Assembly (NCBI RefSeq): GCF_006345805.1
Contig: NW_021833744.1
Span: 62,001 to 126,000 of the forward strand
Direction: 5' to 3'
DNA length: 64,000 nucleotides
DNA from: Octopus sinensis
Lineage: Eukaryota
In this document: positions 19,841 through 22,245 of the stretch, in pieces
Layout: each line of letters starts with the position of its first letter
Numbering within the stretch: position 1 is the first letter of the stretch
Made by a program: the position numbers and the translations under genes
Notes under the pieces: model-generated
Told to the model about the DNA's origin: nothing
Seen by the model: the letters and a program-made list of their open reading frames with translations, nothing else
Database searches by the model: none

Positions 19841-22245
19841 CAGCGGTTCTCAACCTTTTTTAGACTGGGGACCACTTTTGCACTATAAAATTTTGTGGGG
19901 ACCACCTTAAATAAAATAAACATTTTTTGGTATTAGCGCACAATTTTTGGCCTCGTCAGGGCCAGGTTTAGACATGTTCGAATATTTATTATAAAAATAA
20001 CATTAACATTATGAAAATAACAGAAAATTTAATAGTAATTTAGTGAGATTTCTGATCTTGTTTGCTCAGAATAATTTTACTTATATCAGGCTCTATGTTC
20101 GACAAAGCTACTCGCATATCATCTTGTACCCGTAGTCTATTTCTATATTTTGTTTTTAGAAAAGTCAGACACGACATCGCCATTTCACAGTGATAAGTAG
20201 TGGGGAATGCAAGTATTGATTCCAATGCAGTTTTACTCAAAATGGGGAAATTGAATCGTTGGATAATGGTATGTCCTTAAGTTTGGTAACTGCATCCGGA
20301 CCAAACAAAATTCGAGCCATTTCAAGAGCCGCTGGTTTGATTAACTTTTCACCAGAATTGTGTGCAGCTTTGTTTTTTGCGATAATCATTGAGACCTATT
20401 TGTTTTAGATATAAATTAAAATTACAGCATATGATGCTTCTAATCCCGGTTTATCTTGAGATTTATTGTCACCGGCTGGATAATGCCCTGGGTTGGATAA
20501 TGCCCACTCAACGTTATTTTAAAAAAATAAATATTTTTTCAAATTAATTTTGATTAGATTTTTTGATTTTCTTAATTATTTTAGTAATTTATCAAAGTTT
20601 TTTTTCAAATTAATCTACCGTGCAAATTTATTTTGGTTATCTAAGTTTTCCAATTTGAAAAAATAATAAGTATAATTGATCAAATCTATATTTTAGAAAT
20701 GGTTTTACTCAACCTTACTAAAGATGAACTTGAAGTAATCAAAAATATTCAAATAGATGTTTTTTATATGGACCGATTGCAGATTTAGTGGATTTAAGAA
20801 GGTATGCTAGCCTTAATAGCGATAATGGATGGGTATTTCTTTTTGTATAAATTGTAGTTGGTTGTGGTTATAGACTCATTTTTTAAATTCGCAGTTGCCA
20901 GGCGGAAATCAGGGGAGGAAATTACTAGAAAATTAAAGAATATTTTTTACATGATTGGTCCCCCATTTATTCTAAAGACGGATAATGGGAAAGAATTTAA
21001 GAACAAATGTATGGAAACAATGTGTACTGATCTGAAAATCATACATATAAGTGGACGCCCTAAAGCACCATGGATTCAGGGTCATGTAGAAAGGTAAGTT
21101 ATATGTAAATTTATCTTTAGATTCAATCAATCGATCAAAAGGTGGATTAGCTCAACTAGTGCCTCAAATGGGTCTTTTGGAAGCTATAAAGACTTCTATC
21201 AAGAAATCGTTTATAAATATAACATGGCGAAGCATGAAACGACCAAGAGGACACCTTTCGAAATTTTTATGGTAGGAAATAATTTAATCCCGGAGGAAAT
21301 AAGATTGGCGTTATTGTCATTCGATGAAAATGAAGCGGTTGAATCAAGTCAATCGGAGATAATTGGATCTGATTATTTCGAAAACGAGGACGATTGTTTG
21401 AATCAACAAAGTGTGTATGAAAGCCATGTTTTCGCCGGAGAAAAAATGGAAAAAAGGCGGAAATGGAAATTTAATGAAGATTTAGCCGTAGGAGAGAATG
21501 TCCTACTGAGGCATGATATTGATGCAAATCCAAATAATTTTTTATATAATAAAAATTCATGAATTTTTAATATTTGTTTTTAAATGGTAGACCTAAAAAA
21601 CTGTATAATTATAATAAAAAACGTTATTGATTCGGAAAAATTGGTGATGTCGGTTTTTGCCGACTCTTGGAAAAATTCATTTAATCAAAAAATTGATAAA
21701 AAAATTGAATAAATCGACTTAATTTCATTATCAAGTTATTTTTAATTAATTATCAGGTTATTTTCGTTTGATTTTAATAAAATTTTTAAGGGGGTATTAT
21801 CCAACCCAGGGCATTATCCAGCCTGTGACATTTATTAAACCACTCAAGCTTTGGCTGTGAATCAAACTTCGTTCTTTTGACTTTAAAATATTCATGTGAG
21901 GAAGAATTTTCTGGGTGTACAGACTCTTTGTGGCGCCTAAGTTGAGAAGGTTTCAGTGAATTGTTTCCCAAAATTTTATGGCAAATCATGCATTTTGCCT
22001 TTATTTCATTATTTGGGGCAATGAATTTAGTGAATCCAAATTGTACGTAAGAATCCGACCAAAGACGACGATTCTTGTTAACCATAACTAAGAATGATAA
22101 ACCACGCTAATCAAATCAGATTAATTTCAATGTTTTTGATTTATACTTAATTGTACAATTAGTTTTAAATTTAATATATTGTTATTTTTCGAAAATTCCT
22201 GGGGACCACTAAAAATTTTCTGGGAATCACGGTTGAGAACCGCTG
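19841..22245 (-). mobile_element. hAT transposon, Buster/ZBED5-type, internally deleted
   Basis: TIR CAGCGGTTCTCAACC at both ends. Perfect 8-bp TSD TACTAATT (19833-40 and 22246-53). BED finger CMIC..LKPSQLRRH and C-terminal FPTTYHCEMAMS..KTKYRNRL. 30-nt intron at 20396-20425. Confidence 0.95.
20467..21830 (+). mobile_element. Ginger-type (rve integrase) DNA transposon nested in the hAT transposase
   Basis: ~40-bp TIRs TGTCAC(C/A)GGCTGGATAATGCCCTGGGTTGGATAAT with TGT...ACA ends and 5-bp TSD TTTAT. Integrase DLVD..VIDSFFKF..TDNGKEF..GRP..PWIQGHVER|FNQ with introns 20833-20857 and 21094-21120. Confidence 0.9.

What the first reader, a model, noticed from the sequence alone, without database searches (positions are those of the whole stretch)
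20396..20425. Host-style micro-intron inside a Buster-type hAT transposase; transposons from three superfamilies here carry micro-introns
Seen: on the minus strand, LEASYA is joined to VSMIIAKNKAAHNSGEKLIKPAA only by removing gtaattttaatttatatctaaaacaaatag (30 nt, with an in-frame TAA). This restores the ZBED5/Buster ASYxVAxxIAK motif with no extra residues. Similar 25-31-nt introns occur in the pogo and Ginger elements of this window. Known: animal Buster/Charlie transposases are usually single-ORF. Inference: resident DNA transposons have gained introns, or shrunk them to the host size. That would make expression depend on the host's micro-intron spliceosome, possibly as a cell-type control (cf. 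the P element) or a barrier to horizontal escape.
Basis: partly seen in the sequence, partly recalled or inferred. Interest (0 to 1): 0.75.

Follow-up and report, generated by a model that had tools for sequence, protein, structure and literature searches.

The report
Parasite transposons repeatedly gained tiny introns
A jumping gene in DNA that likely belongs to a dicyemid (a tiny kidney parasite of cephalopods, mixed into its host's assembly) carries 27-33-base inserts that are very likely spliced out as introns of the parasite's ordinary tiny size, and related jumping-gene lineages likely gained such introns several times on their own, which would offer a dated series for studying how new introns arise.

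Summary
Observation confirmed. The 30-nt GT-AG segment lies in an internally deleted Buster hAT copy (19841-22245). It is present in 27 of 27 scorable family copies and absent from 70 of 70 outside relatives spanning the site. Full-length copies hold two more inserts (27 and 33 nt). Contigs of two likely-RNA runs lack the inserts: the 33-nt one as an explicit GT..AG joint, the other two by matching gap length. Two DNA-like runs keep them. The window is likely dicyemid DNA co-assembled with its host, and neighbouring host-gene introns have the same size (median 27 nt), so the size is ordinary there. The less ordinary part: seven Buster families in five separate clades carry 18 micro-introns at 13 positions, while three families are intronless. 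One intron-bearing clade is rejected (AU p 1e-6), so the introns were likely gained repeatedly, mostly at G|GT sites, rather than shrunk. No evidence was found for cell-type control or a selected transfer barrier.

The parts
19841..22245 (-). Buster-type hAT element, non-autonomous copy (internal deletion plus nested Ginger)
   Evidence: 15-bp terminal repeats at both ends, 8-bp target duplication; 98-99% identical to full-length copies
22246..22253 (-). 8-bp target-site duplication, 5' side (nnnTAnnn type)
19833..19840 (-). 8-bp target-site duplication, 3' side
21831..22085 (-). Exon 1, 5' part (start codon, BED zinc finger)
   Evidence: Pfam zf-BED 21.7 bits, cut-off 20.6
20426..20461 (-). 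Exon 1, 3' part, below the Ginger insertion
   Evidence: contiguous with the 5' part in uninterrupted copies
20396..20425 (-). Intron 1: 30-nt GT-AG micro-intron, phase 0, in-frame TAA (the finding)
   Evidence: 30-nt gap in contigs of runs X3 and X6 laid on a full-length copy
20245..20395 (-). Remnant of exon 2, ending at the internal deletion (about 1.18 kb lost, including introns 2 and 3)
20040..20244 (-). Remnant of the last exon with stop codon
20467..21830 (+). Nested Ginger2/Tdd-like element, itself internally deleted; 59-nt terminal repeats, 5-bp target duplication
   Evidence: (rve, E 1.5e-6, below cut-off)
21094..21120 (+). Ginger 27-nt predicted micro-intron (GT or GC donor among copies)
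   Evidence: splicing not tested
20833..20857 (+). Ginger 25-nt predicted micro-intron (donor less certain)
   Evidence: splicing not tested
2562..2592 (+). Pogo/Tigger-type element: 31-nt predicted micro-intron before the last exon
   Evidence: 14 of 14 loci; long open frame with DDE_1 and HTH_Tnp_Tc5 in copy L236; splicing not tested
11225..11837 (+). Host Rab-type GTPase gene with five 23-26-nt introns (size control)
   Evidence: continuous frame after removal; gene name recalled from motifs
39062..39602 (+). Host calmodulin-like gene with four 22-28-nt introns (size control)
   Evidence: continuous frame after removal; gene name recalled from motifs
27458..27966 (-). 5' part of host alpha-tubulin gene with 33, 30 and 27-nt introns (size control)

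Best explanation
The 30-nt segment is a family-wide GT-AG insert in a Buster hAT transposase gene that is very likely removed as an ordinary spliceosomal micro-intron by a likely dicyemid host, and was likely gained after the transposon lineage settled in that host. Shown: family-wide presence, absence in outside relatives, host-like size, and loss of the three inserts in contigs of two runs. Inferred: those runs are RNA. Inferred mechanism: this spliceosome needs little more than GT(A), a short A/T-rich stretch and AG over about 22-39 nt. A short A/T-rich filler inserted at an exonic (A)G|GT site, with the site duplicated around it (for example during break repair), would therefore be spliceable at once. 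It would cost the element little and be inherited by all descendant copies. Lineages would thus collect introns stepwise and neutrally, and transposase synthesis becomes dependent on micro-intron splicing as a by-product.
For: Splicing (laid on full-length copy L234): a joint skipping 33 nt with GT..AG ends in X3 and X6. One X6 contig has a 27-nt gap plus that joint. An X3 contig over intron 1 has 30 gap letters. An X6 contig has 50, which equals 30 plus the 20-nt deletion of the reference copy. X1 spans introns 1 and 2, and X2 introns 2 and 3, with 0 gaps. Host: G000 holds a 1,667-nt 18S on an unplaced contig that matches published dicyemid primers (0 and 2 mismatches); the chromosomal 18S tested does not. 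Copies of that 18S lie on contigs that also hold this family (C1794, C8845, C8851, C8598). Size: 18 Buster introns, median 27.5 nt, against 18 host introns, median 27 nt, p 0.39. Gain: 0 of 70, 75 and 68 metagenome relatives have an intron at the three sites; 9 of 11 host-chromosomal Busters gave no call and 2 gave calls no better than decoys; five clades, with one clade rejected at p-AU 1.1e-6. Stepwise pattern: sites 105 and 399 are shared by two families at 52% amino-acid identity with saturated synonymous sites, while 522 and 511 are family-specific. Purifying selection on an intron-bearing pair: dN/dS 0.19. Site bias: 10 of 18 transposon introns are followed by GT against 0 of 18 host introns (Fisher p 3e-4; by position 7 of 13, p 7e-4).
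Against: The kind of runs X3 and X6 is not on record, and they barely cover the neighbouring host gene, so there is no internal RNA control. For introns 1 and 2 only gap lengths were shown, not gap places. Contigs give no splicing efficiency. The link of contig C10215 to a dicyemid is indirect: no 18S was found on it. Only 132 of 3,740 candidates were scored, and 52 Buster loci outside the focal family were analysed. Host introns were hand-picked from five conserved genes, and transposon introns of sister families are not independent. The L102 intron gains only 2 score points over decoys. Site 105 is used in two clades that the data reject as one (p-AU 7.6e-5), which needs parallel gain or an old intron lost elsewhere. 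Junction repeats are only 0-6 nt, so the repair mechanism is not shown. None of 10 full-length copies is intact.
Confidence: 0.75

Rival explanations
1. The introns are ancestral to these Buster lineages, were shrunk to dicyemid size, and were lost in other animals.
For: Site 105/phase 0 is used in two separate clades. Dicyemids shrank their host introns in a conserved exon structure (title of Ogino 2010, seen only in the reference list of PMC6543705). Ginger1 introns can be old and conserved (PMC2836005), so this may hold for the Ginger element, which was not tested.
Against: 0 of 70, 75 and 68 outside relatives have an intron at the three sites, and the query did not include those sites (aligner limit 120 nt, with continuous frames in most loci). 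It needs many independent losses around five clades. The GT bias is absent from host introns.
Confidence: 0.07
2. The introns are kept because they regulate transposition, as the third P-element intron does (recalled): retention in some cells would give truncated repressors.
For: By sequence, retention of intron 1 stops the protein after the BED finger, and retention of intron 3 stops it before the last catalytic residue. An X3 contig ends at the intron-3 donor, which would fit a fork of spliced and unspliced forms.
Against: Positions differ between families (13 sites). Three families spread without introns, one of them recently. No stage or cell-type data were available, and early stops would probably trigger decay (inference).
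Confidence: 0.1
3. The introns were made by an introner, a small mobile element that copies itself into genes.
For: Short junction repeats resemble target duplications (2-6 nt in 14 of 18). Introners are widespread (abstract starts of PMC9860276 and PMC12130899, seen in the search listing only).
Against: All 29 matches to intron 1 (up to 2 mismatches) lie in this family's flanks. Among 153 intron pairs the best z was 3.7, with 1 of 200 shuffles reaching it, which is unremarkable for that many tests. Old introners could have decayed.
Confidence: 0.05
4. The segment is not an intron but a chance insertion or an assembly artefact in dead copies.
For: The window copy is dead and no intact full-length copy was found.
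Against: Present in 27 of 27 scorable copies. The same site is used by diverged families with 25-26-nt inserts that break the frame unless removed. The inserts are present in contigs of independent runs X1 and X2 and missing from those of X3 and X6.
Confidence: 0.03

Closest known systems
Buster group of hAT transposons (TcBuster, Mar; FAM200/ZBED5/SCAND3-like proteins)
   Same: 8-bp nnnTAnnn target duplications, short terminal repeats, BED finger, about 590-aa transposase; closest database proteins 39-49% identical over exon 2. Mar is reconstructed as one exon (PMC3517528).
   Different: Coding region split by three 27-33-nt introns that outside relatives lack.
Dicyemid and myxobolid ultra-short spliceosomal introns (PMC6543705, PMC6736024, PMC13644364)
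   Same: Length (median 27 nt), reduced signals GT(A)...AG, A-rich interior.
   Different: Those papers treat host genes. Here the introns sit in mobile genes with intronless ancestors, are more A/T-rich (82% against 65%) and are often followed by GT.
Intron-containing transposases: Ginger1 (1-4 introns, PMC2836005), BuT2 (five exons, PMC3942097); P element, Ac, Tc1 (recalled)
   Same: Transposase expression depends on host splicing.
   Different: Introns of 23-39 nt, and repeated independent gain across clades of one group within one host.
Intron gain in domesticated transposase genes of mammals (PMC3257199)
   Same: Uses intronless transposon ancestry to show intron gain.
   Different: There the genes are single-copy and domesticated; here the elements are multi-copy, have terminal repeats and were recently mobile.

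Membership tests
Buster hAT transposons | 8-bp target duplication with nnnTAnnn consensus | tested here: met
   Window copy has identical 8-mers on both sides; 20 distinct flanking 8-mers from loci L001-L060 all have TA at positions 4-5; consensus from PMC3517528
Buster hAT transposons | Short terminal inverted repeats | tested here: met
   15-bp repeats at 22231-22245 and 19841-19855
Buster hAT transposons | BED finger plus DDE transposase grouping with Buster proteins | tested here: met
   zf-BED; full-length copies align to profile positions 12-597; nested among FAM200/ZBED5/SCAND3-like proteins. Catalytic residues identified from recall. Pfam gave no hit on exon 2 alone
Autonomous Buster element | Intact transposase frame in a copy | tested here: not met
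   Window copy deleted; 0 of 10 full-length loci intact. L033 is open over 585 codons except for a changed intron-1 acceptor
U2 spliceosomal intron | GT-AG ends; removal restores the frame | tested here: met
U2 spliceosomal intron | Removed from transcripts | tested here: inconclusive
   Strongly indicated: joint of 33 nt with GT..AG ends and gaps of 30, 30+20, 27 and 28 in X3 and X6, but run kind is not on record and places of the two smaller gaps were not printed
U2 spliceosomal intron | Branch point and lariat | not testable with these tools
   A run of A precedes the acceptor, as PMC13644364 describes, but no lariat data
U12 (minor) intron | Extended 5' consensus (recalled) | tested here: not met
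   Donor region does not fit; the AT-ending copies (5 of 27) are best read as an acceptor mutation in one sublineage
Introner | Same sequence at many unrelated loci | tested here: not met
   29 of 29 matches inside the family; no convincing similarity among 153 pairs
P-element-type regulated intron | Cell-type-specific retention giving a repressor | not testable with these tools
   Only contigs, no tissue labels
Dicyemida (origin of the DNA) | Dicyemid 18S rDNA in the assembly | tested here: met
   Primers R2 and F3 from the supplement of PMC6778094 match L131 with 0 and 2 mismatches and do not match chromosomal L132; no tree against named sequences
Dicyemida (origin of the DNA) | Window contig itself assigned to that organism | tested here: inconclusive
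   Indirect: 22-37-nt host introns, no microsatellites unlike host contigs, shared families with 18S-bearing contigs
Ginger2/Tdd | TGT termini, 50-180-bp repeats, 4-5-bp target duplication, integrase-type core | tested here: met
   features from PMC2836005; no tree built

The most novel reading that the evidence does not exclude
Dicyemids gain introns so readily that any transposon lineage collects micro-introns in step with its residence time, and this confines it to hosts able to splice 23-39-nt introns. The focal family would still move between dicyemid lineages but not to the cephalopod: it differs by under 1% between G000 and sample S1, whose neighbouring single-copy gene differs by about 7%.
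Probability: 0.2. Interest if true: 0.75.

Novelty: new variant of a known kind. Interest (0 to 1): 0.5.

Why it matters
How new spliceosomal introns arise is a long-standing question, and clean gains are rare because the ancestral state is usually unknown. Here the ancestral state is very likely intronless, the gains fall on a tree (13 sites, five clades), and three families without introns serve as controls, so site preference and mechanism can be tested. It also shows that open-frame-based transposon annotation would call such families dead, and that this animal assembly holds a second genome. The tiny size itself is a published dicyemid trait.

Tried and rejected
Splicing of the Ginger and pogo segments and of host-gene introns was not tested on reads. 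A host-parasite transfer of an intronless family was considered (L097 near chromosomal L128) and rejected: L097, L119 and L120 lie on host-like contigs with microsatellites, and the L097 family is mostly chromosomal. Intron calls dropped before counting: chains of 43-59-nt calls across insertions in L085 and L123, 60-nt calls in L096 and L109, and calls no better than decoys or not A/T-rich in L107, L115, L129 and L130. The 26-nt call in degraded L123 was not counted, and the L085 intron at 399 was added by inspection. Myxozoan origin was my first guess and was dropped after the 18S test. PDB sequence search gave no match. The first Rab and calmodulin splices were off and were corrected. Ten paper searches listed no paper on introns in dicyemid transposons; the word 'transpos' occurs 0 times in the main texts of PMC6736024 and PMC6543705. 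Their supplements were not read, and subscription papers (Ogino 2010, Arensburger 2011) were not seen. Passages of PMC9942856 and PMC13085455 gave no ciliate precedent.

Full report
OBSERVATION. The segment at 20396-20425 (minus strand) is 30 nt, GT to AG, phase 0, with an in-frame TAA. It lies in a hAT element at 19841-22245 with 15-bp terminal repeats and an 8-bp target duplication. This copy has lost about 1.18 kb of its catalytic region and carries a Ginger element (20467-21830, 5-bp duplication) in exon 1. A DNA search of G000 gave 40 matches. Of the 30 loci fetched, 27 could be scored and all carry the segment; 22 end in AG and 5 in AT. An exact intron-less junction was not found in G000, and all 29 near-exact matches to the segment lie in this family. 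The pogo (31 nt) and Ginger (25 and 27 nt) segments are real as well, with less uniform donors in Ginger.

WHOSE DNA. G000 has chromosome-scale contigs and many unplaced ones. All matches to this family are on unplaced contigs (0 of 40 and 0 of 48 on C1-C30). Two 18S types are present: about 2.6 kb, mostly on chromosomes, and 1,667 nt on C1618. The short one matches dicyemid primers R2 and F3 taken from the supplement of PMC6778094 (0 and 2 mismatches); the chromosomal copy tested matches neither. Degraded copies of the short type lie on contigs that also hold the family. Host genes in the window splice to continuous frames through 22-37-nt introns (18 hand-picked, median 27). PMC6543705 gives a median of 27 nt for Dicyema sp., and PMC13644364 finds such introns only in dicyemids and myxobolids among 51 animal genomes. 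The window is therefore likely dicyemid; the link for this contig is indirect.

ANATOMY OF THE FULL ELEMENT. I built a profile from 120 homologues and a spliced aligner with decoy splice signals. Full-length copies have three inserts: profile 105/phase 0 (30 nt, stop), 399/phase 1 (27 nt, no stop) and 522/phase 2 (33 nt, stops). None of 10 full-length loci is intact.

SPLICING. No RNA holder was on record. Four runs were laid on a full-length copy. X1 and X2 cover the neighbouring host gene without intron joints; X1 spans introns 1 and 2, and X2 introns 2 and 3, with no gaps. X3 and X6 (two samples, one study) show a joint skipping 33 nt with GT..AG ends. One X6 contig also has a 27-nt gap over intron 2, and an X3 contig has 28. 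Over intron 1, X3 has 30 gap letters and X6 has 50, which equals 30 plus the 20-nt deletion of the reference copy (535-30+20=525, the contig's length). The simplest reading is spliced RNA. Limits: the run kind is unknown, the places of the smaller gaps were not printed, and contigs give no efficiency.

GAINED OR SHRUNK. Among the best 80 of 551 metagenome relatives, found with exon 2 only, 0 of 70, 0 of 75 and 0 of 68 that span the three sites have an intron there. Of 11 host-chromosomal Busters, 9 gave no call and 2 gave decoy-level calls. On parasite-like contigs (one search tested this composition) seven families carry 18 introns of 23-39 nt at 13 positions, and three families (L081, L100, L122) have none (dropped calls are listed under Tried and rejected). 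The intron-bearing families form five clades nested among intronless elements (FastTree, 103 rows; IQ-TREE quick LG+G4, 42 rows). One clade is rejected (p-AU 1.1e-6), as is the union of the two clades sharing site 105 (7.6e-5); the groups were named after the first tree was seen. Within clades the pattern is stepwise: 105 and 399 are shared by families at 52% identity with saturated synonymous sites, while 522 and 511 are private; 168 and 412 are shared, while 237 is private. An intron-bearing pair shows dN/dS 0.19. Three of five intron-bearing clades have deep splits inside the parasite compartment and none of three intronless families does; the numbers are small and sampling covered 132 of 3,740 candidates.

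MECHANISM (inferred). Transposon introns match host introns in length (p 0.39) but are more A/T-rich (82% against 65%) and are followed by GT in 10 of 18 cases against 0 of 18 (non-independent, 7 of 13 by position). Junction repeats of 2-6 nt occur in 14 of 18. This fits short filler inserted at (A)G|GT sites with duplication of the site, spliceable at once because dicyemid signals are reduced to GTa and AG (PMC13644364), then inherited neutrally. Introner origin has no support here.

Retention of intron 1 or 3 would truncate the protein, but nothing here shows regulated retention. An intronless parasite family is as absent from host chromosomes (0 of 46) as the focal one, so no barrier effect is visible; it remains plausible as a by-product. 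One lead points the other way within dicyemids: the element differs by under 1% between G000 and sample S1 while the adjacent gene differs by about 7%.

COMPARISON AND NOVELTY. It is a Buster hAT family by target duplication, repeats and phylogeny. Introns in transposases are known (Ginger1, PMC2836005; BuT2, PMC3942097), as is gain in domesticated transposase genes (PMC3257199). My ten searches listed no report of repeated micro-intron gain in dicyemid transposons. Seven earlier notes of this scan describe the same theme on other DNA of this genome; my reading was recorded before that look-up, and a search by sequence found nothing. Papers seen: PMC13644364, parts 1-2 of 3; PMC6736024, PMC6543705, PMC7710466, PMC2836005, PMC3942097, PMC3517528, PMC3257199, PMC9942856 and PMC13085455, passages; PMC6778094 and PMC12953835, passages and supplement rows; PMC9860276 and PMC12130899, search listing only. 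P element, Ac, Tc1, the U12 consensus and the host gene names other than tubulin are recalled.

VERDICT. A real and very likely spliced micro-intron; ordinary in size for its likely host; interesting as one of a series of independent intron gains in mobile genes. New variant of a known kind; interest 0.5.

Noticed in passing
L234:380-3940 against L234:7071-8235: In DNA-like runs X1 and X2 the single-copy host gene beside the element differs from G000 by 235 letters and 38 gaps over about 3.3 kb, while element contigs differ by 2 of 214, 3 of 440 and 8 of 1,165. The gene is single in G000. This fits spread of the family between dicyemid lineages, or a very polymorphic species.
   Followed up: partly
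L005, L006, L017, L019, L020 (intron 1): A sublineage of five copies has the acceptor changed from AG to AT; one (L033, same place as L005) is otherwise open, so it was probably inactivated by a splice mutation and still copied.
   Followed up: partly
window 21094-21120 and L249-L262: The Ginger intron has a GC donor in 5 of 12 copies and GT in 5 of 12; fuller copy L258 shows two more candidate micro-introns (26 and 30 nt, by eye).
   Followed up: partly
L090 and L032/L085, profile site 105: The same intron site and phase occur in two clades that the data reject as one; a possible parallel gain at a conserved valine codon.
   Followed up: yes
L081 family: A young intronless Buster burst (mostly 98-100% identical, 46 matches, all on unplaced contigs) with an intact copy.
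   Followed up: partly
G000 C1618, C12762, C8845, C8223, C8851, C1794, C8598: Dicyemid-type 18S plus scattered degraded copies at 84-91% identity; the host-type 18S is about 2.6 kb.
   Followed up: partly
window 17313-19800, 36253-37178, 53739-57034: Other mobile remnants: a non-LTR retroelement into whose end the Buster copy inserted, a DUF659-type hAT fragment, and a pogo-like shell holding a second degraded hAT.
   Followed up: no
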